A DNA stretch of 35,061 bases from a virus (lineage: Duplodnaviria > Heunggongvirae > Uroviricota > Caudoviricetes). How positions within the stretch are numbered: position 1 is the first letter of the stretch; each line of letters starts with the position of its first letter. The DNA lies in IMG/VR virus record IMGVR_UViG_2654587570_000013, positions 1-35,061 of that record; one strand, given 5' to 3'. A program made the translations under genes and the position numbers. Shown piece after piece: positions 962 through 34,755 of the stretch. Below the pieces are notes generated by a model that saw only the letters and a list, made by a program, of their open reading frames with translations, did no database searches and was not told the origin of the DNA.

Positions 962-997
962 GCCCCTATCGTTATAATACGCGGTAGGGGCGTTTTT
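962..997 (+). terminator. intrinsic terminator after the 81-aa gene
   Basis: GCCCCTAtCG ... CGgTAGGGGC stem (one wobble), 10-nt loop TTATAATACG, then GTTTTT. Confidence 0.6.
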
Positions 998-1010
998 GTT
1001 TGGAAATGGT

Positions 1011-2690
1011 ATGAAAACTAAACTGTATTCGTATATTCGCTTCTCGTCTATGCGTCAGAATGATGGTTCGAGTTATGAACGACAAATCAGGATGGCGAGA
1101 GAGGTTGCGGCAAAGTATGACCTTGAACTGGTAAATGATTATCAGGATCTGGGTGTATCTGCGTTTAAGGGTGCTAACTCTAAAACAGGGGCGCTATCTC
1201 GTTTCCTTGATGCAATTGGTAGATCCGTTCCTGTTGGTAGCTGGCTATTCATCGAGAACTTGGACCGTTTATCCCGTGCCGATATTGTCAGTGCGCAGGA
1301 GTTATTCCTTTCAATAATCCGTAGGGGGATAACCATTGTTACTGGCATGGATAACAAGATCTACTCGCTGGATACTGTTACCGCTAACCCGATGGACCTG
1401 ATGTTCTCCATCCTTTTATTCATCCGTGGTAATGAGGAAAGCCAGACTAAGCGCAATCGTACTAACTCAAGCGCATTGATTAAGATTAAAGCTCATCAAG
1501 AAAATCCACAAAATCCGGCAGTGGCTATCGAGGAAGTTGGAAAGAATATGTGGTGGACTGATACCACTTCCGGTTATGTGTGTCCCGATCCGGTCTTCTT
1601 CCCTATTGTTCAGGAGGTTGTGGAATTACGCAGGAATGGACGGTCTACCGCCGAGATACTGGATCACCTTAACGCGACATATACACCACCACCAGCCGCA
1701 AGTCACAAGAGGCATTCAAACTGGTCACGAGCAATGATTGAAAGGTTGTTCCATACCCGCGCTTTGATTGGTATCAAGGAAATCTCTGTAGATGGCGTTA
1801 AGTATGAGTTAAAGGATTATTACCCTCGTGTGCTAGATGACGCTGAGTTTTATCACCTTAAGAAAAGCATTGGTGTTAGAGCATGTAACTATGGAGACAA
1901 AGAAGAAGCTAAACCGATCCCCCTGCTTAGTGGTGTTAATCTGCTGAAATGTGAACATTGCGGTTCCGCTATGGTTAAGGTGAAAGGAACTAACAAACGG
2001 CCTAACCAATATCGTTATTCATGCGATGCAATGCGCTCTAGTCGTATTGCATGTGTGCATACAAACTGGAGTTTTCGAGGTGATCAATTAGAGAAAGCTG
2101 TATTGCAATTGCTGGCTGATAAAATCTGGATTGCTGAGGATAAGGCTAATCCTGTTCCGGCTTTGAAAGTACAGATTGATGAGATATCACGCAAGATTGA
2201 TAACCTGATTACCCTTTCTGCTATGACTGGAGCAACGAAGGAGTTAGCCGACCAGATTACTACCCTCAATAGCGAGCGTGAAACACTCTATAATCAGATT
2301 AAGATGGCAGAAGAGGAAATGTATTCTGTGGACTCTCAAGGCTGGGAGAAGCTCGCAGAATTTGATTTAGAAGATGTTTATAACGAGGATCGCATTAAGG
2401 TCCGGTTTAAGATTAAGCAAGCTCTAAAACGGATCGGGTGTAGCAGGATTGACAAATACAAAAACTTGTTTGTATTGGAATACATTGATGGCAAGACCCA
2501 GAGAGTTGTAATAGAAAATTCAAGAGGACCGAGGAAAGGACAAATCTTTGTCGATTTGAAAACTATCAATGATAGGCAGATTCTGGAGAGTAACGGGCTT
2601 GTTCTGCATCCATGTTTAGACATGCTGACAGATAAAGACTGGAAGCCAGAAGAGGAAATACCAGGTCCATTACAGGAATTTGGAATTTAA
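1011..2690 (+). CDS. large serine recombinase (integrase-type, 559 aa from ATG 1011)
   Basis: N-terminal resolvase-type catalytic motif YSYIRFSSMRQ plus ENLDRLSRAD. Its size, a central recombinase region, the Cys cluster CEHCGSAM...YSCDAMRSSRIAC and a C-terminal coiled coil fit the class. The track start at 996 is TTG inside the upstream terminator, so ATG 1011 is preferred. Confidence 0.85.
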   Translation: MKTKLYSYIRFSSMRQNDGSSYERQIRMAREVAAKYDLELVNDYQDLGVSAFKGANSKTGALSRFLDAIGRSVPVGSWLFIENLDRLSRADIVSAQELFLSIIRRGITIVTGMDNKIYSLDTVTANPMDLMFSILLFIRGNEESQTKRNRTNSSALIKIKAHQENPQNPAVAIEEVGKNMWWTDTTSGYVCPDPVFFPIVQEVVELRRNGRSTAEILDHLNATYTPPPAASHKRHSNWSRAMIERLFHTRALIGIKEISVDGVKYELKDYYPRVLDDAEFYHLKKSIGVRACNYGDKEEAKPIPLLSGVNLLKCEHCGSAMVKVKGTNKRPNQYRYSCDAMRSSRIACVHTNWSFRGDQLEKAVLQLLADKIWIAEDKANPVPALKVQIDEISRKIDNLITLSAMTGATKELADQITTLNSERETLYNQIKMAEEEMYSVDSQGWEKLAEFDLEDVYNEDRIKVRFKIKQALKRIGCSRIDKYKNLFVLEYIDGKTQRVVIENSRGPRKGQIFVDLKTINDRQILESNGLVLHPCLDMLTDKDWKPEEEIPGPLQEFGI

Positions 2691-2763: not shown

Positions 2764-3762
2764 TTAAAGAGCCTCTAAAGGGCTTAAATCGAGTTCTAAG
2801 TCTTCCGGTATTAAATCAGCTAACGGTGCATTCATCCACTGCGATAAATCTCGTTCTATGTCTTCATCACTAATGTAGTTGTTCAGATTGATTGCGTTGG
2901 TATCATCAAAATACATTGGCTTAGATGGGTTGGTGTGGATGTATTCATTGATGAATGATTTAACATCTTTCAGCTTGCTAATCGGTAGCGTTTCTGTGAA
3001 TCCGCTATTCATTACCTTACGTGGGATTTTCTTGCCCTGAATATTCTTTTTAATCCCCATTTCTAAATCACCAGCTTTCCATCCAATGTTAAACAAATGT
3101 GAGCATTCAAAGGTGATTTTCTCGCTGGTGTGCTTCTGGTGTTCTCTTACCCGTTGCATCGGATCTTTGCGAGTGGTAATTCCATATTTGAAAAACTTCT
3201 CGCCAACACGAATTAGATAAAAGTGCATAGAGCGCTGTGCAAACTTGTTTCTGATAACCTGTTTTCTACCATTCTGAATTGATTTAAGTACACCCCTAAC
3301 CAAAGGGCATGTTAACCCACCTTGTCTGCGGTTATTGTGTAAATCACCTTTCTTGTGAATCTTTCCGTGGCACTTACAACGAAGAATTAGTTTAGTGTCA
3401 ACACCCTGATAAGGTTCAGCCAGACCTAACACATCCCACCCTATCGGCTTGTAGAACTTGCGAGCGTTTTCTAAGTGTTCTTCTTCGGTAAATCTAAACT
3501 TCTTCTTAGGCGGTGATACTCTATCTTTGCCAGTAAACTGACCAGTTAGAACATGACTAATACATGGCGTTTTAACCTTTCCGTTAACTTCTATGCAAAC
3601 TTTGGTGTTCTGGAATGGTTTCTTTACAGGAAGCACAAAACCACTGTATAACCATCCATGCGCTTGACAAACTTTAATGATTCTGGTTTCATATTCGACC
3701 GGAGGGGTCGCACGTTTGCTTTTTGCGGTAAATTCGATATCCTTTGCTAAAGTAGTATTCAT
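2764..3762 (-). CDS. GIY-YIG superfamily (T5orf172-like) domain protein, homing-endonuclease-like (332 aa)
   Basis: C-terminal half has FYLIRVGEKFFKYGITTRKDPMQRVREHQ ... GFTETL, resembling the GIY..YIG..R..E pattern. The N-terminal half has two repeats of a C..HG...GL(T)CP zinc-ribbon-like module, as I recall from phage homing-endonuclease-like genes. Assigned from memory, not searched. Confidence 0.5.
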   Translation of the reverse strand: MNTTLAKDIEFTAKSKRATPPVEYETRIIKVCQAHGWLYSGFVLPVKKPFQNTKVCIEVNGKVKTPCISHVLTGQFTGKDRVSPPKKKFRFTEEEHLENARKFYKPIGWDVLGLAEPYQGVDTKLILRCKCHGKIHKKGDLHNNRRQGGLTCPLVRGVLKSIQNGRKQVIRNKFAQRSMHFYLIRVGEKFFKYGITTRKDPMQRVREHQKHTSEKITFECSHLFNIGWKAGDLEMGIKKNIQGKKIPRKVMNSGFTETLPISKLKDVKSFINEYIHTNPSKPMYFDDTNAINLNNYISDEDIERDLSQWMNAPLADLIPEDLELDLSPLEAL

Positions 3763-4534: not shown

Positions 4535-4882
4535 TTAGATCATTTCGAAGATATAACCAATAAAGCGCATACCCTTGATATAATAAGGAGCAGTGCCTAC
4601 ACACACCGCGCGTGCATCACCCAGACAGTTAAAGCTATAAGGATTAACTACATCGACTTCTTGCCCTACACGAAAACGATATTTAGGACGTTTAGCCAAT
4701 GTAGCGACACAAAACACGGTCCCCTTTTCATGATCACGGATACATTCTTTATATTGTTTATGTTTAACTCTCTTCGCCTCAAAATCATAGGTCATAGATT
4801 CTGGGCTAATGCCATTAATAAAAATACCGGAAAGCTGATCAACCGGATAAGTAGGAAATTCAGTGAAAATATTTTTAGCCAT
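4535..4882 (-). CDS. hypothetical protein (115 aa)
   Basis: Tightly packed ORF in the late operon. No family recognised. Confidence 0.6.
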   Translation of the reverse strand: MAKNIFTEFPTYPVDQLSGIFINGISPESMTYDFEAKRVKHKQYKECIRDHEKGTVFCVATLAKRPKYRFRVGQEVDVVNPYSFNCLGDARAVCVGTAPYYIKGMRFIGYIFEMI

Positions 4883-25693: not shown

Positions 25694-27601
25694 TTAGAAC
25701 GATGTTACCCAACTACGGCCTCTATTTGGAGGTCTGACGATGTTTTGACGTTGCGGTCGTGTGATTGGCTTAGTTTCTTCGATTTGCTCGTTAGATTGCG
25801 ATTTAGGAGCTTTTACGGGTTCTTCGACAACGCGGTTTAAGCTGTCTTTCATTGCAATGAGTTTATCCCATGACATTTTTGAAAGGACGTAGCGAGAAGC
25901 CGCATAGCTATAAACCAGACAGTCGAGAGCCTCGTTTCGGGTACTACCTGGATTTTTCACCCAACGCACGCCAGTAGTAGTACGCTTGATGGATTCACTC
26001 AAAAGCTGATCGAGATAATCATCAGGAACGGTTTCTGATATCTCTAAACCAATATGAGGATTGTCTTTCAGGTTTCTAACCAGCATTTCACGAACAGCAG
26101 ATTTACCAACGTTAACACCCAGCATAAGCAATTCATGACCACCTGTGCGGGTAGGTTTAACCGGAATCACTGGAGCATTACCAGATGAACTACCTTTGAT
26201 CGCGTGTAGGTTCTTCCACTTACCGCAAATACGGTATCCGGCTTGAGTGAATCGACCGTTCGATGTATCAAGGAAGCTGGCGAGCATAGGAACACGATCA
26301 CCCGATACAGTAGTAAATTTGGTTTTATGGAAGTTGATTAATCTATCCCATACAGGGGATTCATATCGTTCACAGTTATGATCGTAAAAGCTGCGGTGAT
26401 CCAGAATGTAAACCTTATCTTTCGCTACACCTAAGATGGTAGTTTCTGCGCGATCTAATTGCTGGTCAGTACCCGCACATAAGAAAATCACGTCATCAGG
26501 GATATTCTCGATAGAAACATCTGTTTTGAGTTGTTCCAGTTCATTTGCTTCTACTGCCGTGTCCTGATCGTCGTATACCTTGCCTAACACGGTGTTAAAA
26601 AAGGATTGTAAATCAAAGGATTGCCACGCATGACTAAAATCAACCACACAAGCGCGAATCGTGCTGAAAGGTGAATACAGACGACTGATCCAGAATCCTG
26701 CTACCTCACTTTCACGGGTTGCTCTCCACTCTCCTTGTGCTACTGCCCTGATTCGTTCCCCTTCTGTCCATGCGTTCTTACAGTGGGGGCAAATATAACG
26801 AGCGGTATCAGGATCGGGTAAGTTCTTACCATCAATGTTACGCCATTCAAATTGAACGTTTTCCCACTCGATCACCTGGTGTCTACCGCAATGAGGACAC
26901 GGAACAAAAAACATACGCATATCGCTTGATAACCATTGCTGGTTAATGCTTCCCAGCTTACTGGTCGGGGTACTGGATACGACTAATCGACCTTCATCGC
27001 CAAAGGTAGTTAAACGGTTAGCAGCCAGTGCCACCGGATCACCTTCTTCTGAGGCTGTGGCAGCATCAATTTCGTCAAGTAATCCAACCTTTGCGGTCTT
27101 ACCACGTAGGGTTGATGGGCTGGTAAGCGATACCATGTACAGGAAGTGATTCGTTTTTAACTGGAGTTGGTTGTTGTTGTTAACCGCGTTGCGATCATTC
27201 TTGTCTGTAACCACGTCTTTCAATGCATCACATGCTTCGATAGACGGTCGGATCTTACCCGCGAGATATTGAGACATTTCTTTAGCGGTTGATTGTCCGA
27301 TAATCATATTGCATGGATCGTTAGCCATCTGGTTAAACAGGATACCGTTTAGGATGGTAGTTTTTCCGATCTGCGCACTGGTCATCAGTACATACTTTTT
27401 CTTATTCTCAAGGAAAGGAGCATCAATCATGCCTTTCTGGAATGACAGCAATTTAACTTTATCCCCCGCTTGAGGACCATCTACCAGCACCATATTCGCT
27501 TCGCACCATTCAGACGGAAGGAGCTTAGGCGGTGGAGTGATATATTTTGCGGCATTTTTAAGAATCTTTTTTAATTTTGCCTTATTAGAAATCAGTTTCA
27601 T
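25694..27601 (-). CDS. terL: terminase large subunit, lambda GpA-type (635 aa)
   Basis: Walker [10 protein letters not shown] and Walker B GLLDEID. The paired Cys motifs CPHCGRHQ...[10 protein letters not shown] are typical of GpA-family terminases. The size (635 aa) fits lambda gpA. Confidence 0.9.
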
Positions 27602-27644
27602 GTAATTACCCTCATTACGAAATATGAAGGTATTTATTAAATTA

Positions 27645-27672
27645 TTGATATTTTGATAAATACGGGTATTAA
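27645..27672 (+). promoter_or_regulatory. candidate sigma70 promoter for the rightward 198-aa gene
   Basis: TTGATA-N16-TATTAA, about 17 nt upstream of the AAGGAGG RBS. Confidence 0.4.
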
Positions 27673-27688
27673 GATTTAAGGAGGGTGT

Positions 27689-28285
27689 ATGCTAATTAAT
27701 CAGCAAGAAAGAGATGAATTAGCCTTGTCTTGTACCGATCATGAATATCGTTTACCCGTTAAGCATAAGCATTTAAAAACCGATTACACAACATCTGGGT
27801 TTAGCCGTGAGGAAGCGAAAGAGATTTTAATAGAATTTTACCGTGATAATGGCTATAGAGACGTTCATAACTTCTTTAAGAAGCATCGCACATCACAGAC
27901 AGAGTTTCAGCGAGTCCGTGAGTGGTTTGATTTTGATATCAAGCGTTATTATCGCATTGATGACGGTCCTATCTATCGGTTGCAGTGGAAGCCGATCAGG
28001 GAAGTGTTGAAACAGAAGAGATTGAATCACGCAATTACACGCTATCGTAACGAGGCTTTCAAGAAAGGCTATGGTGATACAAGGGAACTATTCGTTGAAC
28101 TCGCTAACGTGAAGTACAGCCACTATTACAACGATCCTAAAGGGTTCTTTGAAGTGCTTCGCAAGGTTGATATAAGTCGGGGTACATATTATTCACGGTT
28201 GAAGAAGTACGGGATTAAGGCAGAGTTCTTTATGTCGGTTGACGATGGAGAACTTTTTCCGATAAAATGTAAGTCCTCTAAATAA
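27689..28285 (+). CDS. tandem-HTH-module protein (198 aa)
   Basis: AAGGAGG RBS. It contains two copies of the module also found singly in the 77-aa and 59-aa proteins (FYRDNGY..FFKK...FQRVREWF and [27 protein letters not shown]). Confidence 0.6.
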
Positions 28286-28314
28286 AGGTGAACATTCACT
28301 TTAATTTGGAGAAA

Positions 28315-28548
28315 ATGACTATGACTACTAAAGCTACTCGCGGTCGCCCTACCCGTTTTAATCGTGAACAGATGGCTGATATTGCCTACGCTTACTATAC
28401 AGCGGATCGTGGTAAGGAAGCGAAAGAACAGATTCTTAGTGAACATGGGATCTCAATCGCCCAATTCTATAAGAATATGAAGAAGTTAGACATTAAATTC
28501 TATGTTCAGATCGGTGATGGTCAGATCGTAGAAGCAACAGGTTTTTGA
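28315..28548 (+). CDS. small HTH DNA-binding protein (77 aa; alternative start 28321)
   Basis: ATRGRPTRFNREQMADIAYAYY...GISIAQFYKNMKKLDIK is paralogous to the 31655..31834 product. The GGAG position favours ATG 28321. Confidence 0.6.
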   Translation: MTMTTKATRGRPTRFNREQMADIAYAYYTADRGKEAKEQILSEHGISIAQFYKNMKKLDIKFYVQIGDGQIVEATGF

Positions 28549-30394: not shown

Positions 30395-30593
30395 AGTGGT
30401 ATCCTCTAAAAGAAAGTGAATCAAACAAATTACACTAGTATTTATACGAGAAAAAAATATCTATTTGGAAGTGATTGGATTCAGTCGGCTTCGCCTCCTT
30501 CATGATTTTGATTAAATCATCATCAAAACGAAGGAGTATCTTTAGAATATAAGAATCTTTCTTTTGGAGAAATAATAATCAGGAAGCAATTTG

Positions 30594-30837
30594 GCAACCG
30601 AAGGTTGCAATCCCGAAGGGATACCAATACCTTTCTAGAAAGTGATTGTTACTCACTTCGTTCGTTTACTAGAATCAGTTAGTAACTAGCATTAAATCCC
30701 TTTCTAAGAAAATCCTTTCAAAAGTGAGTGAACGCCGTAGGCGTGAACGTGAGCGAAGCGAACTATCCAATCCCTTTCGAATCCTGCTTGCAGGTCTTAG
30801 AAGGTGTTGATGGGCGCTTCGCGCACGGCTACGCCGT
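30594..30837. repeat. field of GC-clamped mini-hairpins with 3-nt loops
   Basis: GCAACC-GAA-GGTTGC (30594-30608), ATCCC-GAA-GGGAT (30610-30622), ACGCC-GTA-GGCGT (30732-30744), GC-GAA-GC (30753-30759), GCGC-TTC-GCGC (30814-30824) and ACGGC-TAC-GCCGT (30825-30837). A perfect palindrome CTTTCTAGAAAG sits at 30631-30642. Confidence 0.7.
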
Positions 30838-30967
30838 ATTCTTTTTGCGAGATCTTTCTTGAACGTAGTGAGAGAAAACGAGCAAAAAGGAGAACGTTAG
30901 TTCGAATTTTATATTCTATGGTCTGTGGGGTGAAATGTTTTTCAAGATCATACACTTATGAGATTGA

Positions 30968-31092
30968 AGTGTAGGGTTAGTGTAGGTGTGTAGGTTTCAT
31001 AGTGTAGGTTTGAGGGTGTTATAGTGTAGGTTTACTGGCTAGTGTAGTGTAGGCCAATCCCTTTAAAGTGTAGGTTTGTAGTGTAGGGTTTT
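30968..31092 (+). repeat. iteron array: 8 direct copies of (A)GTGTAGG(TTT)
   Basis: GTGTAGG starts at 30969, 30980, 30988, 31002, 31024, 31047, 31068 and 31081, all in the same orientation. Three copies are exactly AGTGTAGGTTT. Confidence 0.85.
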
Positions 31093-31093
31093 C

Positions 31094-31110
31094 ATCAAAA
31101 ATTTTGATAG
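31094..31110. repeat. AT-rich palindrome ATCAAAAATTTTGAT; 15-mer CAAAAATTTTGATAG repeated at 31245-31259
   Basis: The 15-nt palindrome is perfect. The identical 15-mer occurs at 31096-31110 and 31245-31259. Confidence 0.7.
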
Positions 31111-31195
31111 AAAATTCTTGTATATTATTTAATCAGAAAATCACCAAAAATCGCGGTAACTGCATGATTTAAAAGGAATGGTCAAAAGGTCACCG

Positions 31196-31204: not shown

Positions 31205-31284
31205 AGGTTATAAAGGTTGATAATCGTTATCCGCCATTTTCACACAAAAATTTTGATAGTCTTTTCTCGTTTAGGTCAAGTGTA

Positions 31285-31313
31285 TTGACAACTGTCAAGG
31301 ATTATTTTATACT
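31285..31313 (+). promoter_or_regulatory. strong sigma70-type promoter (rightward)
   Basis: TTGACA (31285-31290), a 17-nt spacer, then TATACT (31308-31313). Confidence 0.65.
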
Positions 31314-31447
31314 TTTTATCGCTGGTGGGGGTTGAAATTTTCTAAACAGCCCCCATATAGATGATAAGCAAGATTTTTCGTGTATAAATACATGCATGAA
31401 ATGATTGTTCACTTCTGAAAATCCCCTGATTCACTGTTAACACATAC

Positions 31448-31475
31448 AGCACTGGTTAAACACACAGTGCTTTTT
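31448..31475 (+). terminator. intrinsic terminator inside the rightward leader
   Basis: AGCACTG / 10-nt loop / CAGTGCT followed by TTTT, about 155 nt downstream of the predicted start. Confidence 0.65.
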
Positions 31476-31533
31476 CGATTAAATAATGTACGAAATGATT
31501 AATTATTAATCTTCTCTTTAGCAATTCGTGCTC

Positions 31534-31559
31534 CCACTGATCGGATATACAGTGGTTTT
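31534..31559 (+). terminator. second hairpin with U-tract in the leader
   Basis: CCACTG / 10-nt loop / CAGTGG followed by TTTT. It has the same CACTG...CAGTG design as the first. Confidence 0.45.
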
Positions 31560-31654
31560 ACAGGGTTTTCTGAAATGACTTTTATAAATAGAAGTATCGA
31601 GGGCGAAAAGCTCTTTTTATTGTCCTTATTAATCCACATTTGAGGAATCTACTT

Positions 31655-31834
31655 ATGGCTAGACCTGTTAAGTTTACTCGTGAAATGATTGTTGATATTG
31701 CTAAACGCTTTTATGGCGATACTGAACGAGGCGGCGAGAATTTCTTTAAGAAGGAAGGAATTGATAGAAGCGGATTCTATAAGTTAATGAAGAAATACGA
31801 AATTCAGATAAAGATTAACGTTCAAGTTTGTTAA
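31655..31834 (+). CDS. small HTH DNA-binding protein (59 aa)
   Basis: GAGGA RBS 8 nt before ATG 31655. MARPVKFTREMIVDIAKRFY...GIDRSGFYKLMKKYEIQ is paralogous to the 28315..28548 product. Confidence 0.6.
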   Translation: MARPVKFTREMIVDIAKRFYGDTERGGENFFKKEGIDRSGFYKLMKKYEIQIKINVQVC

Positions 31835-31950
31835 TCCACTTTCACTGAGAATTATATGATGGCTTTAAAAATAAAAAGCCTCCCTTGTTGCAGCAAAGGA
31901 GGCTTGAAATGAACAATTAAAACTAACACAGCATTCAGGAGTATTTATAA

Positions 31951-32946
31951 ATGAAAAATTCTAAGCGCATCACCTTCAACCTGTTTATTAAATCCAACGG
32001 CAAACTGAACATTACCGTCATGGAAGGTAAAGCAAGCAAACAAGACAAATCCTTTGAAGTAGTATCCGGTAAGACTCTGACCGAAATGCGTCAGAATGCT
32101 GGCATCAAAGACGGTGCTGAATGGCAGATCACTAACCGTTTCGACAAACGTCACGTTAAACCTACACTGGTAGAAGGTGAATCCGTTTATTGCTTCGCTC
32201 GTGCTGTTAAAGCCGATGAAACTTACTATCTCGCTGTTGTTAAAACTGCTTCCGGCTTCCGTGCTGTAATGCATCACAAGAGCAAGCGTAACGAATACGG
32301 CGTAGAGACCCAGGAAGTCGCAAAACGCTTCCGTACTGTTGCTACCGAATCCACTGTAAAGGATGTTTCTGGTACTGTTAACACCGCTAAAGGCGGTTCC
32401 TTCTACAACCACGCATTACAGGTTACTTCCTCCTTCTTCTGCAAAAAAGAAGCACAGAAAGAAGTTTCTCCGGTAGTAGTTGAAGAAGTTAAAGAAGAAG
32501 TTGCAGTGGTTGAATCTTCCGAAGTTGAAGCACTGAAAGCACGCATTGCTGAACTGGAAGCTGAAAACGCATCTCTGAAAGCTGAACTGGCAGCACAGGA
32601 AACCACTTTCGAAGTAGCAGCGGTTGAAGTTGAAGCAGTTGAAGAAAAATCCATTGATGAAGAACTGGAAGAACTCCTTAACTATCGCTGGGGTGTTGTT
32701 GCAGAAGTAGAACAAGAAGTTGCTCCGGTAGTTGTTCCGGTTGAAGTTGAAAAAGAATCCGCACCTGTTACTAACTTTGAATCCCTGCGCAATAACTTTA
32801 TGGCTAAATTCAAAACCACTTGGGAAGATACCGAAGAAGAACAAGAAGAGATTGAAGTAAACGAAGACGAGATCCGCGAAGCACAGATGGCACTGCATGA
32901 CGCTATCTACGACACCAACTACAGCGCCTACGCATACGCAGCTTAA
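31951..32946 (+). CDS. abundant-type acidic coiled-coil protein of unknown function (331 aa)
   Basis: AGGAG RBS. A basic N-terminal ~170 aa domain is followed by a coiled coil (ALKARIAELEAENASLKAELAAQE) and acidic V/E-rich repeats. Extreme codon optimisation leaves a single TTA/CTA/TCA-type codon (the TTA at 32416) across 31951-32946, keeping the antisense frame open. Confidence 0.75.
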   Translation: MKNSKRITFNLFIKSNGKLNITVMEGKASKQDKSFEVVSGKTLTEMRQNAGIKDGAEWQITNRFDKRHVKPTLVEGESVYCFARAVKADETYYLAVVKTASGFRAVMHHKSKRNEYGVETQEVAKRFRTVATESTVKDVSGTVNTAKGGSFYNHALQVTSSFFCKKEAQKEVSPVVVEEVKEEVAVVESSEVEALKARIAELEAENASLKAELAAQETTFEVAAVEVEAVEEKSIDEELEELLNYRWGVVAEVEQEVAPVVVPVEVEKESAPVTNFESLRNNFMAKFKTTWEDTEEEQEEIEVNEDEIREAQMALHDAIYDTNYSAYAYAA

Positions 32947-32961
32947 TAGAGGGGTGAATCT

Positions 32962-33204
32962 ATGATGAATCAAAACAAAGAATTTCTGGGTAATCTGATG
33001 TTAGAAATTACCAAAATGAAAGAAAGAATGGTAGCGATGGAATCAGAGATTAAAACTCTTAAAGCTGATAATAAGGCGTTGAGAAAGTCCTTAAAGCTGA
33101 TTGATGAGACTAATGCGGTTATGATGGATCATGTATTCCCTGAGTGGCGAAATGAAACTAAACCTACACAACATAAGAAACTTACACTTCGAATTGTTGC
33201 ATAA
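32962..33204 (+). CDS. small coiled-coil protein (80 aa)
   Basis: GAGGGG RBS. Heptad-rich MKERMVAMESEIKTLKADNKALRKSLKL. Confidence 0.6.
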   Translation: MMNQNKEFLGNLMLEITKMKERMVAMESEIKTLKADNKALRKSLKLIDETNAVMMDHVFPEWRNETKPTQHKKLTLRIVA

Positions 33205-33228
33205 AAAAAAGGGACTCCGAAGAGTCCC
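33203..33228 (-). terminator. intrinsic terminator (leftward)
   Basis: Minus strand reads GGGACTC-TTCG-GAGTCCC followed by TTTTTTTT. Confidence 0.7.
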
Positions 33229-33303
33229 TAGTAAGTTTAGGTTAGGTTTGCACAACAAAGATGAGGTTATAATGAACATAATGCTACATTATTCTTTAAA
33301 GCC

Positions 33304-33904: not shown

Positions 33905-34456
33905 TTAAGACACATCAAATTCATCGTCTTCTTCTGGTTCTTGTTCCGGTTCATCCATTAATGGTAATTCTTCTTCCTCGTCTTCTCCTAAATCCGCATT
34001 TTCGAACAAGTCCCCTACTTCATTTAAACGACGCTCGATGATCTCCCTTAGCTTATTCTTCAATGTTTTCTGGTCGGTGGCAGATTCAAGAATTTCTAAA
34101 GCGTCGATTGTGGCGATCTGCAAAATAGTCTGTTTCACCTTCCCGCAATATTCCGCTAGTTCCTGCTCAACATACCCGACCGGAATCAGGAGGTTCATTG
34201 CTTCCTGGTTCTCTCGTTCGGCTGCATCTGCTAATGCTCTCTCACGGCGTAATTTCTCTACGTCGATTTGTTCCTTGACAGTAGTTTCCCTGAGTGGACT
34301 GATGATATTTTTTGCTACCCACTCGGTCCCCTCTTTGAGTGGCACGCGGCGGGTATTGGTATTGTAAGGTAGTCCCCTTTCTAACCATTTCTTAGCGGCG
34401 TTAATTGTATAGCCGTATAAGCGGGAAATTTCTGTAAGGGTTAATTCTTCTTTCAT
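33905..34456 (-). CDS. terS: terminase small subunit, lambda Nu1-like (183 aa)
   Basis: AAGGAGG RBS. The N-terminal winged-HTH LTLTEISRLYGYTINAAKKWLERGLP and the VEKLRRE...ADAAERE helix resemble Nu1 as I remember it. The C-terminal tail is acidic. Confidence 0.6.
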   Translation of the reverse strand: MKEELTLTEISRLYGYTINAAKKWLERGLPYNTNTRRVPLKEGTEWVAKNIISPLRETTVKEQIDVEKLRRERALADAAERENQEAMNLLIPVGYVEQELAEYCGKVKQTILQIATIDALEILESATDQKTLKNKLREIIERRLNEVGDLFENADLGEDEEEELPLMDEPEQEPEEDDEFDVS

Positions 34457-34755
34457 CCGGTTATCCTCCTTTAAATTTGCGTAAAATTATTTATCTGATC
34501 TGCGCATTCAGGAGAGCGCCTAAAACGCTTTATAACGAAGGGAAAGATCGAGGCATGGAAAGGGATTGGCGTGTGTTAATAGTCGCGTAGCGACCGCGCT
34601 GGTGGGCTGCACTGCACCTGTTTTGAAATCTCACACGCACATCAAATACCGGGGTGCCGAAAACTCCCTTTATTTCACCCGTGGAACAGTACCTTTTGAT
34701 TTTGTCAAGTCTTTTTTATAAATAATCGAAAATATTTTTCACACGAGGGCAAATC

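What the first reader, a model, noticed from the sequence alone, without database searches (positions are those of the whole stretch)
30968..31092. Eight direct AGTGTAGGTTT iterons within 125 bp
GTGTAGG occurs eight times in one orientation, with starts spaced 11, 8, 14, 22, 23, 21 and 13 bp apart. Several spacings are close to one or two helical turns. An AT-rich palindromic tract follows immediately. I noticed no comparable cluster elsewhere in the window; only a weak TAGGTTAGGTTT echo appears at 33234-33250. The leftmost copy overlaps the -35 position of a possible leftward promoter (-10 TATGAT at 30952-30947), an arrangement typical of autoregulated initiator genes. Which protein binds these repeats is not evident.
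Basis: seen in the sequence. Interest (0 to 1): 0.65.

Follow-up and report, generated by a model that had tools for sequence, protein, structure and literature searches.

The report
Prophage iteron array and its binding protein
Eight repeats in an uncharacterised E. coli prophage are almost certainly the docking sites of the unannotated 331-residue protein encoded 860 bp away; repeat and protein swap together in five matched versions, as a replication origin and its initiator would, but that function is inferred.

Summary
GTGTAGG occurs 8 times in one orientation at 30969-31087, against about 2 expected in the whole window, and a 60-bp tract of 18% G+C follows.

The window is a ~35-kb temperate E. 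coli prophage. It has a serine integrase and a gpA-type terminase, and sits in hicB or ycdX. Its early region has no annotated function.

Across about 45 related loci the array sits at the same place in five sequence types:
- A: GTGTAGG
- A': GTGCAGG
- B: CAGGGGCAA
- C: CGGGGA
- D: GGAATCTTGGGGATTT

Each type pairs without exception with one version of the N-terminal domain of the 313-342-aa protein (window 31951-32946). The genes around and between them assort freely. Homology between types breaks at the array's right edge and at that gene's start codon. Repeat cores are conserved while spacers drift, and every array is helically phased.

So this protein very probably binds the repeats. Its function is inferred. 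A replication origin with its initiator is most likely (about 0.45). A regulatory or immunity array is the main rival (about 0.3). The protein has no detectable homologue, so it cannot be placed in any known initiator family.

The parts
30968..31092 (+). Iteron array: 8 direct copies of tAGTGTAGGtTT, with cores starting at 30969, 30980, 30988, 31002, 31024, 31047, 31068 and 31081
   Evidence: The array is nearly invariant in 10 close relatives, two of which carry 22-bp deletions. Against L165, cores are 42/42 identical and spacers 39/53, Fisher p = 2e-4. Phasing has best period 11.2 bp, R = 0.83, p = 0.013. It is not structured as RNA.
30728..30967 (.). Non-array part of the type-specific left cassette. 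It includes a long imperfect hairpin or inverted repeat (about 30715-30850) followed by a T-run
   Evidence: Homology to types B, C and D is lost from 30727, 30635 and 30721 up to the array's right edge. The hairpin has dG -53 kcal/mol, z = -3.3, and a terminator-like site lies at 30825-30847. Its role is unknown.
31091..31151 (.). AT-rich tract (18% G+C) abutting the array, starting with the palindrome ATCAAAAATTTTGAT (31094-31108). Candidate unwinding element and/or operator
   Evidence: The sequence is conserved across iteron types A-D.
31244..31258 (.). Second, partial copy of the AAAAATTTTGATAG palindrome, 27 bp upstream of the -35 hexamer
   Evidence: families D4 and I3.
31285..31313 (+). 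Strong sigma-70-type promoter TTGACA-17-TATACT (11/12). Its -35 lies in the palindrome TTGACAACTGTCAA. It would drive the operon of the 59-aa, 331-aa and 80-aa proteins
   Evidence: It is the only promoter-like site conserved in all six array types.
31599..31623 (+). Terminator-like hairpin in the 340-nt leader, just upstream of the 59-aa gene. Possible attenuator
31655..31834 (+). 59-aa helix-turn-helix-like protein (MARPVKFTRE...). Its alleles assort independently of iteron type, so it is not the iteron binder
   Evidence: It is a paralogue of the 86-aa ORF at 28288-28548.
31876..31905 (-). Strong minus-strand intrinsic terminator between the 59-aa gene and the 331-aa gene
31951..32946 (+). 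331-aa protein, the inferred iteron-binding protein. It has a type-specific, strand-rich N-terminal domain (about residues 1-175), a coiled coil (about 190-245), an acidic linker and a short C-terminal helix ending in ...YAA
   Evidence: Its N-terminal type covaries 1:1 with iteron type in about 45 loci. The reading frame is real: nucleotide differences to L165 are 25/19/61 by codon position. No Pfam, PHROG, NCBIfam, PADLOC or PDB match except coiled coil. Only 5 cluster representatives were found among 1.84 billion.
32962..33204 (+). 80-aa coiled-coil protein, the second gene of the type-specific right cassette. It shares a C-terminal tail (...PTLRLVA-like) with unrelated-looking second genes in types C and D, and is absent from type B
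32158..32168 (-). Perfect inverted copy of AGTGTAGGTTT inside the 331-aa gene. Significance uncertain
   Evidence: It is present in all close type A relatives and absent from L165.
33160..33188 (-). Two inverted 1-mismatch copies in the last codons of the 80-aa gene. Probably lineage-specific or a coding coincidence

Best explanation
The array is the cognate binding-site cluster of the 331-aa protein encoded 860 bp to its right (31951-32946). Together they most likely form the phage's replication origin and initiator. Proposed mechanism: the protein dimerises or oligomerises through its central coiled coil. Its type-specific N-terminal domain recognises the roughly 11-bp repeat. Because the repeats lie on one face of the helix (period about 11 bp), 6-15 bound units build a wrapped nucleoprotein complex. 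That complex strains the adjoining 18%-G+C tract, possibly helped by transcription from the strong promoter about 190 bp away. The acidic and C-terminal part then recruits host replication proteins. Shown here: the repeats, their conservation and phasing, and the strict pairing of repeat type with protein type. Inferred: physical binding (I put it at about 0.85). More weakly inferred: that the complex initiates replication rather than controlling transcription (about 0.45).
For: 1. Repeat type and N-terminal domain type pair 1:1 in about 45 loci from isolates, complete E. coli genomes and metagenomes. The types are A GTGTAGG, A' GTGCAGG, B CAGGGGCAA, C CGGGGA and D GGAATCTTGGGGATTT, with no exception.
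2. The change is graded. A 67%-identical protein keeps GTGTAGG and the first five spacings. A 45%-identical protein has a one-base change in the core.
3. Flanking genes do not covary. The alleles of the 59-aa gene, which lies between array and protein gene, and of the 162-aa gene assort freely. The small-terminase-like protein is 87-98% identical in every type.
4. Homology breakpoints between types fall at the array's right edge (31093, 31091, 31086) and at the start codon of the 331-aa gene (31949-31958).
5. Cores are 42/42 identical and spacers 39/53 in the window versus L165 comparison (p = 2e-4). All six arrays are helically phased (R 0.72-0.94, p 0.003-0.03).
6. An AT-rich, low-stability tract abuts or interrupts the array in every form.
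7. No other recognisable replication gene exists in the 35-kb prophage.
8. There is an experimentally proven precedent for this signature. In the Vibrio PLE satellite, an intergenic iteron origin covaries with the N-terminal DNA-binding domain of RepA (PMC8263062).
9. One genome carries two type B prophages, which argues weakly against an immunity determinant.
Against: No homology to any known initiator or DNA-binding family was found. The structure models are of low confidence (pLDDT 44 and 49) and the fold searches were uninformative. No DnaA-box or IHF consensus lies near the array, and there is no GATC cluster. The AT-rich tract is not the least stable in the window, and its conserved palindromes look like operators. 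The module was not found on any plasmid or sequenced phage. Many co-evolving specificity types among near-identical prophages are also what immunity systems show. In the right cassette the 80-aa gene is swapped together with the 331-aa gene, so for type A alone covariation cannot separate the two. Type B, which lacks the second gene, does separate them.
Confidence: 0.5

Rival explanations
1. The array is a regulatory array. The 331-aa protein would be a transcription factor: an immunity repressor, autoregulator or activator. By cooperative binding to many phased direct repeats it would silence or activate neighbouring promoters. The five types would then be immunity or incompatibility groups. 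This would resemble Mu repressor on O1-O3, P2 C on direct repeats, or the co-evolving repressor and stoperator sites of cluster A mycobacteriophages.
For: The array always lies upstream of the strong promoter of the protein's own operon, and in L164 the last repeat is 16 bp from the -35 hexamer. In the B-type hybrids L140 and L168, a GTGTAGG sits in the spacer of a TTGACA-17-TATACT or TATAAT promoter. The prophage has no recognisable CI-type repressor. Multiple co-evolving specificities in otherwise similar prophages are typical of immunity regions. The protein's layout (N-terminal DNA-binding domain, coiled coil, C-terminal ...AA tail) recalls the Mu repressor; that resemblance is from my own knowledge.
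Against: In the common arrangement the array ends 193-238 bp from the promoter and overlaps none that is conserved. The promoter region has its own palindromic operator-like sites, which are shared by types A-D and assort independently of iteron type. That suggests a separate regulatory system. The GTGTAGG copies at the promoter in L140 and L168 sit next to a type B protein, not their cognate. Copies of the motif elsewhere do not behave as functional sites: the one in the terminase gene is kept in L164, whose iteron is GTGCAGG. One genome holds two type B prophages.
Confidence: 0.3
2. The array is a centromere-like or structural nucleoprotein site. The protein would coat the phased repeats to position, pair or segregate phage DNA, as ParR does on parC or KfrA does with its N-terminal DNA-binding domain and long coiled coil. 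It would not start replication.
For: The arrays have repeats of about 11 bp in phase, 6-15 copies, upstream of the operon. The protein has a long coiled coil.
Against: No ParA, ParM or TubZ-type NTPase is present in the cassette or elsewhere in the window. The element integrates with a serine recombinase into hicB or ycdX, and all 70 matches of the region in complete genomes are chromosomal, none on plasmids.
Confidence: 0.08
3. The array is a packaging recognition site (cosB or pac) bound by the small terminase.
For: The phage has a gpA-type large terminase, and a small-terminase-like gene lies at 33905-34456, about 2.8 kb from the array.
Against: The small-terminase-like protein is 87-98% identical across loci whose iterons are unrelated in sequence, so it cannot be the specificity partner. 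The array lies downstream of that gene and 3.4 kb from the large terminase gene.
Confidence: 0.02

Closest known systems
Vibrio cholerae PLE satellite: RepA and its intergenic iteron origin
   Same: An intergenic iteron cluster covaries with the N-terminal DNA-binding domain of the neighbouring protein. The rest of the element is shared, and specificity modules have been swapped repeatedly. For PLE this was shown experimentally to be a modular origin-initiator pair (PMC8263062).
   Different: PLE RepA has a recognisable RepA_N domain and about three 30-bp semi-palindromic iterons. Here the domain matches nothing known, the repeats are 6-15 short direct units, and a promoter plus a small gene separate the array from the protein gene. 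The C-terminal half is only weakly conserved between types (30% between A and B).
Phage lambda O protein and ori-lambda, and lambdoid replication-specificity types
   Same: An N-terminal domain reads type-specific iterons and an AT-rich tract lies next to them. The gene lies in an early rightward operon behind a strong promoter and a small helix-turn-helix gene. Replication specificity and immunity are separate mosaic modules. These points about lambda are from established knowledge.
   Different: Lambda's four 19-bp iterons lie inside the O gene, whereas here the array is 860 bp upstream. There is no Phage_rep_O match, and no P-like helicase loader is recognisable.
Iteron plasmids and the P1 plasmid replicon (RepA with incC and incA)
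   Same: Phased direct repeats lie upstream of the gene for the protein that binds them. Extra copies lie downstream in type A. Copy number varies by unit deletions.
   Different: No Rep_3, RepA or winged-helix signature was found, and no DnaA boxes. The module is never seen on plasmids. The downstream copies are not conserved in L165.
Mu repressor with its operators, P2 C repressor with direct repeats, and cluster A mycobacteriophage repressor with stoperators
   Same: An asymmetric short site is repeated many times and co-evolves with a repressor's DNA-binding domain. The Mu repressor likewise has an N-terminal DNA-binding domain, a coiled coil and a C-terminal degradation tail. These comparisons are from my own knowledge.
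   Different: The array does not overlap a conserved promoter, and dispersed copies fail the covariation test. A separate palindromic operator set exists at the promoter.

Membership tests
Iteron-type replication origin (functional class) | Cluster of at least 3 direct repeats of one motif in one orientation, more than chance gives | tested here: met
   There are 8 copies in 125 bp. The window holds 15 against 2.0 expected, and no shuffle of 100 reached 15.
Iteron-type replication origin (functional class) | Repeats spaced in helical phase | tested here: met
   The best period is 10.5-11.3 bp, with R 0.72-0.94 and p 0.003-0.03, in each of six arrays.
Iteron-type replication origin (functional class) | A cognate binding protein is encoded nearby, with matched specificity | tested here: met
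   Iteron type and N-terminal domain type correspond 1:1 in about 45 loci, and the homology breakpoints fall at the array edge and the start codon. Binding itself is inferred, not measured.
Iteron-type replication origin (functional class) | Adjacent AT-rich unwinding element | tested here: inconclusive
   An 18%-G+C tract abuts the array, but it is only the 6th least stable 60-mer in the window and carries operator-like palindromes.
Iteron-type replication origin (functional class) | Host-factor sites (DnaA boxes, IHF) near the repeats. Common but not universal | tested here: not met
   TTWTNCACA has a single match in the window, at 34735. No IHF consensus lies within 3 kb of the array.
Iteron-type replication origin (functional class) | Supports initiation of DNA synthesis or autonomous replication | not testable with these tools
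   This needs marker-frequency analysis, 2D gels or a mini-replicon test.
Known initiator protein families (RepA_N, Rep_3, Phage_rep_O, RepA/TrfA winged-helix, HUH Rep) | Sequence or fold match of the binding protein to the family | tested here: not met
Lambda-type origin | Iterons lie inside the initiator gene | tested here: not met
   The array lies 860 bp upstream of the gene. The single intragenic inverted copy is not conserved in L165.
Type II partition locus (parC, ParR, ParM) or other centromere systems | Partner NTPase (ParM, ParA or TubZ) encoded with the centromere-binding protein | tested here: not met
   No such domain is found in any ORF of the cassette or the window.
Repressor-operator (immunity) array | Sites overlap the promoters they control | tested here: inconclusive
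   No overlap exists in the common arrangement, where the gap is 193-238 bp. The last site is adjacent to the -35 in L164. A non-cognate GTGTAGG lies in the promoter spacer in L140 and L168.
Repressor-operator (immunity) array | Co-resident prophages of the family carry different types | tested here: inconclusive
   Strain UTME-9 carries A plus B. Strain BS74R-D carries two matches to the B-type gene, and only one of them (in ycdX) was inspected.
Terminase recognition site (cosB or pac) | Specificity matched to the small terminase | tested here: not met
   The small-terminase-like protein is 87-98% identical across unrelated iteron types.

The most novel reading that the evidence does not exclude
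The 331-aa protein founds a previously unrecognised family of sequence-specific DNA-binding proteins. It has a strand-rich N-terminal domain with no detectable relatives, and it serves as the replication initiator of a widespread but unstudied E. coli prophage lineage. Its origin is split from the gene by a shared promoter and leader segment. At least five origin-initiator specificities are kept together by selection despite recombination between them, perhaps driven by conflict between co-resident elements, as shown for PLE and the ICP1 nuclease Odn.
Probability: 0.4. Interest if true: 0.65.

Novelty: new variant of a known kind. Interest (0 to 1): 0.55.

Why it matters
It assigns a testable partner and role to a block of 'hypothetical' genes present in roughly 1% of complete E. 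coli genomes (60 of 5426: 18 type A, 35 B, 6 C, 1 D). It also offers a natural set of five matched pairs of a short DNA motif and a protein domain, including a pair that differs by a single base. Such a set is a compact system for studying how DNA-recognition specificity evolves in a domain of unknown fold. If the origin reading holds, it adds a new initiator family and a set of mutually orthogonal origin-initiator pairs that work in E. coli. If the regulatory reading holds, it defines a new kind of prophage immunity determinant. In either case the array is a functional element and not a chance repeat.

Tried and rejected
- A scan of viral contigs for three GTGTAGG within 30 bp of each other returned only in-frame coding repeats and chance hits, so that scan was wasted.
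- Megablast and tblastn against sequenced phages and plasmids found nothing for the region or for the type A or B protein.
- Two scans of species-representative genomes found nothing.
- Two of the three word-indexed protein searches returned only near-identical type A proteins, including the profile search meant to reach the other types.
- Rfam and tRNA scans of the window found nothing, and the array does not fold as RNA.
- The DnaA-box, IHF and GATC-cluster checks were negative.
- PADLOC gave no defence-system match for the cassette.
- The idea that dispersed GTGTAGG copies are functional stoperator-like sites is rejected for the terminase-gene copy. That copy persists in a phage whose iteron is GTGCAGG.
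- The idea that the 59-aa helix-turn-helix protein binds the repeats is rejected, because its alleles assort independently of iteron type.
- Literature searches for the motif and for prophages in hicB or ycdX found no description of this phage.

Full report
**The observation**

The + strand between 30968 and 31092 carries eight GTGTAGG cores. The whole window has 15 copies against 2.0 +/- 1.3 expected from dinucleotide-preserving shuffles, and none of 100 shuffles reached 15. The extended consensus is tAGTGTAGGtTT. Seven of the eight copies match AGTGTAGGTTT with at most one mismatch.

Immediately to the right lies ATCAAAAATTTTGAT (31094-31108) inside a 60-bp stretch of 18% G+C. That stretch is the sixth least stable 60-mer of the window (z = 3.1), so it is marked but not unique.

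One is perfect, at 32158-32168. Two have one mismatch each, at 33160-33170 and 33178-33188.

**Context**

The window is essentially a whole temperate prophage of Escherichia coli.
- It has a large serine recombinase (996-2690), an M15 endolysin, and a long minus-strand structural module.
- That module ends with a lambda-type portal and a gpA-type large terminase (25694-27601).
- Identical copies of the 331-aa protein are encoded in E. coli and Shigella chromosomes next to hicA, yncJ, rlhA, ydcN and tehAB, with hicB truncated.
- A second insertion site is ycdX.
- RefSeq annotation calls every gene of the early region 'hypothetical'.
- No sequenced phage or plasmid carries the region, and I found no description in the literature.

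The array sits in a 1.2-kb non-coding stretch between two gene groups.
- To the left is a leftward group: a 162-aa acidic protein and a Rha-type regulator.
- To the right is a rightward group: a 59-aa helix-turn-helix-like protein (31655-31834), the 331-aa protein (31951-32946) and an 80-aa coiled-coil protein (32962-33204).
- The rightward group lies behind a near-consensus promoter, TTGACA-17-TATACT, at 31285-31313.

**The key result: five matched types**

I collected related loci from IMG/VR, complete E. coli genomes, exact-protein look-ups and metagenomes. At the same position, left of the same conserved AT-rich segment, the array exists in five sequence types.

| Type | Repeat | Copies | N-terminus of the 313-342-aa protein |
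|---|---|---|---|
| A | GTGTAGG | 6-9 | MKNSKRITFN... |
| A' | TTAGTGCAGGG | 6 | MKKNRITFN... (45% identical to A) |
| B | TTCAGGGGCAAAA | 6-9 | MLFSANFFTNEV... |
| C | (A)CGGGGA | 12-15 | MKQNNFSITVYS... |
| D | GTGGAATCTTGGGGATTT | 5 | MKNVKIWFYDNT... |

Sources. Each repeat type occurs with one and only one version of the N-terminal 170 or so residues of that protein.

In 36 non-redundant loci, plus seven metagenomic and two further type C loci, there is no exception.

The relation is graded. A protein 67% identical overall (77% in the N-terminal domain) keeps GTGTAGG and even the first five spacings. The 45%-identical protein goes with a single-base change in the core.

By contrast, the alleles of the 59-aa gene, which lies between the array and the protein gene, occur with several iteron types. 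So do the alleles of the 162-aa gene. The small-terminase-like protein is 87-98% identical throughout.

Pairwise blastn places the breakpoints precisely.
- Similarity between the window and types B, C and D stops at 30727, 30635 and 30721.
- It resumes at 31093, 31091 and 31086, the right edge of the array.
- It runs to 31949-31958, the start codon of the 331-aa gene.
- It is lost across the 331-aa and 80-aa genes and resumes at 33205, 33201 and 33183.

So there are two type-specific cassettes, separated by 857 bp of shared DNA, that are always inherited together. That is the signature of a DNA site and the protein that reads it.

The 80-aa gene is part of the right cassette. Type B has no such second gene, so the 313-342-aa protein is the common denominator.

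**Further support that the repeats are functional sites**
- Against the 67% relative, all 42 core positions are identical, while 39 of 53 spacer positions are (Fisher p = 2e-4). The flanks are 67-80% identical.
- Each of the six arrays is helically phased, with best period 10.5-11.3 bp, resultant 0.72-0.94 and p 0.003-0.03 against random placement with the same period scan.
- Two relatives have clean 22-bp deletions inside the array, as expected from slippage between repeat units.
- The array has no RNA structure (z = +1.6 and -0.5), and no Rfam family or tRNA is present.
- The 331-aa reading frame is real: differences to the 67% relative fall 25/19/61 on codon positions 1/2/3.

**What the protein is**

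It has no match in Pfam, PHROGs, NCBIfam, PADLOC or PDB sequences, apart from a coiled coil at about 190-245. A full HMMER pass over 1.84 billion cluster representatives found only five proteins.

The five types share an architecture:
- a strand-rich N-terminal domain;
- a coiled coil;
- an acidic linker;
- a short C-terminal helix, ending in ...AA in five of the six versions.

That ending resembles the ClpX-recognised ssrA tag. This comparison is from my own knowledge and was not tested.

Structure prediction stayed at low confidence (pLDDT 44 and 49), and the fold searches gave nothing usable. Membership in any known initiator, repressor or centromere-binding family therefore fails or cannot be tested.

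**Function**

I favour an origin-initiator pair, for these reasons.
- The arrangement is many phased direct repeats beside an AT-rich tract.
- The cognate protein has a variable N-terminal reader domain.
- The gene sits in an early rightward operon behind a strong promoter and a small helix-turn-helix gene.
- No other replication gene is present in the genome.
- The exact comparative signature was shown experimentally to define a modular replicon in the Vibrio PLE satellite. There the intergenic iterons covary with the N-terminal domain of RepA (PMC8263062).
- The promoter region carries its own palindromic operator-like sites: ATCAAAAATTTTGAT twice, and TTGACAACTGTCAA over the -35. These are shared by types A-D and assort independently of the iterons. 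This suggests that regulation and iteron specificity are two separate systems, as immunity and replication are in lambdoid phages.

The main rival is that the protein is a repressor or activator and that the types are immunity groups.
- For it: the array is always upstream of the protein's own operon, and in L164 the last repeat is 16 bp from the -35. No classical repressor is recognisable. Multiple co-evolving specificities are typical of immunity.
- Against it: the array overlaps no conserved promoter in the common arrangement. The motif copy in the terminase gene persists in the phage whose iteron differs, so dispersed copies are not co-evolving sites. One genome holds two matches to the B-type gene.

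A centromere role lacks any partner NTPase. A packaging-site role is excluded by the conserved small terminase.

The leftward TATGAT promoter is weak, and the scan did not report it. The only leftward candidate near the left edge (TTCACC-17-TAAAAT, 30934-30906) is confined to the window's own type.

The minus-strand copies at 32158 and at 33160-33188 are kept in close relatives. They are missing from the 67% relative, which uses the same iteron. The latter two also lie in the codons of a peptide tail (...KPTQHKKLTLRIVA) that is conserved in the second-gene family. I therefore treat them as doubtful.

**Verdict**

The array is a real, functional, type-specific protein-binding array. I put binding by the 331-aa protein at about 0.85. 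Replication initiation is the best-supported function at about 0.45, with transcriptional control or immunity next at about 0.3. It works like a known kind of system, an iteron origin with its initiator. But the protein is an orphan and the site and gene are split, so I class it as a new variant of a known kind.

Noticed in passing
window 30425-30967: The 540 bp left of the array are dense with short G+C-rich hairpins that have GAAG, GTAG or TTCG loops. They also carry a second repeat family, AATCCCTTTC(T/G)A(A/G)AA, at 30626, 30695 and 30769 (with one more copy inside the array at 31054), plus inverted partners such as TAGAAAGTGATT. The segment 30715-30850 folds into a long hairpin (dG -53 kcal/mol, z = -3.3) followed by a T-run on the + strand. 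It could be a small RNA, a terminator or a DNA cruciform, and part of it belongs to the type-specific left cassette.
   Followed up: partly
window 31314-31654: The 340-nt leader between the strong promoter and the 59-aa gene contains a terminator-like hairpin (31599-31623) just before the ribosome-binding site. It also has a conserved box, CTCTTTAGCAATTCGTGCT (about 31513-31531), which is present twice in L164 and L140. This suggests attenuation or antitermination control of the operon.
   Followed up: no
window 31876-31905 (minus strand): A strong intrinsic terminator (12-bp stem plus T-run) points leftward between two rightward genes. This implies a leftward, antisense transcript across the 331-aa gene that stops here.
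   Followed up: no
window 33905-34456 versus 25694-27601: The only small-terminase-like gene (phrog_57, E = 4e-15) lies 6.3 kb from the large terminase gene, with the whole early and regulatory region between them. This is an unusual split of the packaging genes.
   Followed up: no
window 27554-27754: The least stable DNA of the whole window (21-27% G+C, z = 3.4-3.7) lies between the divergent large terminase gene and a 198-aa gene. It includes one of the window's four IHF-consensus matches (27638-27650). It is a candidate cos site, divergent promoter region or alternative origin.
   Followed up: no
L140 4825-4872, L168 about 4770-4830, L141 about 4825-4845, L008: Some arrays are mosaics. Type B arrays that go with an alternative promoter region end with one to three GTGTAGG units, one of them inside the spacer of a TTGACA-17-TATACT or TATAAT promoter. 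Type B arrays, and one type A array, also contain a single D-like unit (GGAATCT(T/A)GGGGATTTT). These look like remnants of past cassette exchanges.
   Followed up: partly
window 28288-28548 and 31655-31834: The 86-aa ORF next to the 198-aa gene is a paralogue of the 59-aa helix-turn-helix-like protein (37% identity over 57 residues, E = 2e-10).
   Followed up: partly
window 32962-33204; L167 6579-7580; L166 5865-6725; L165 7040-7264: The second gene of the right cassette varies widely in length (74-333 aa) and in sequence. It always ends in a conserved tail, ...(K/R)PTLRLVA, and is absent from type B. In type C, a separate repeat TGTAGGTATATTGGT (three copies) lies left of the main array.
   Followed up: partly
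window 996-2690 and both prophage ends; L169, L137, L165: The prophage family uses a large serine recombinase and is found in two chromosomal sites, inside hicB and inside ycdX. In each case the target gene is left truncated.
   Followed up: partly
window 2764-3762 (minus strand): A 332-aa protein between the integrase and the lysis genes matches a PHROG endonuclease family (phrog_681, E = 2e-19) and, weakly, PD-Lambda-1 defence models (E = 0.002). It may be a cargo or defence gene.
   Followed up: no
NZ_CP157110.1 (strain UTME-9) and NZ_CP063332.1 (strain BS74R-D): Polylysogeny occurs within this family. UTME-9 carries a type A and a type B prophage. BS74R-D has two matches to the type B gene, one in ycdX and the other not located.
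   Followed up: partly
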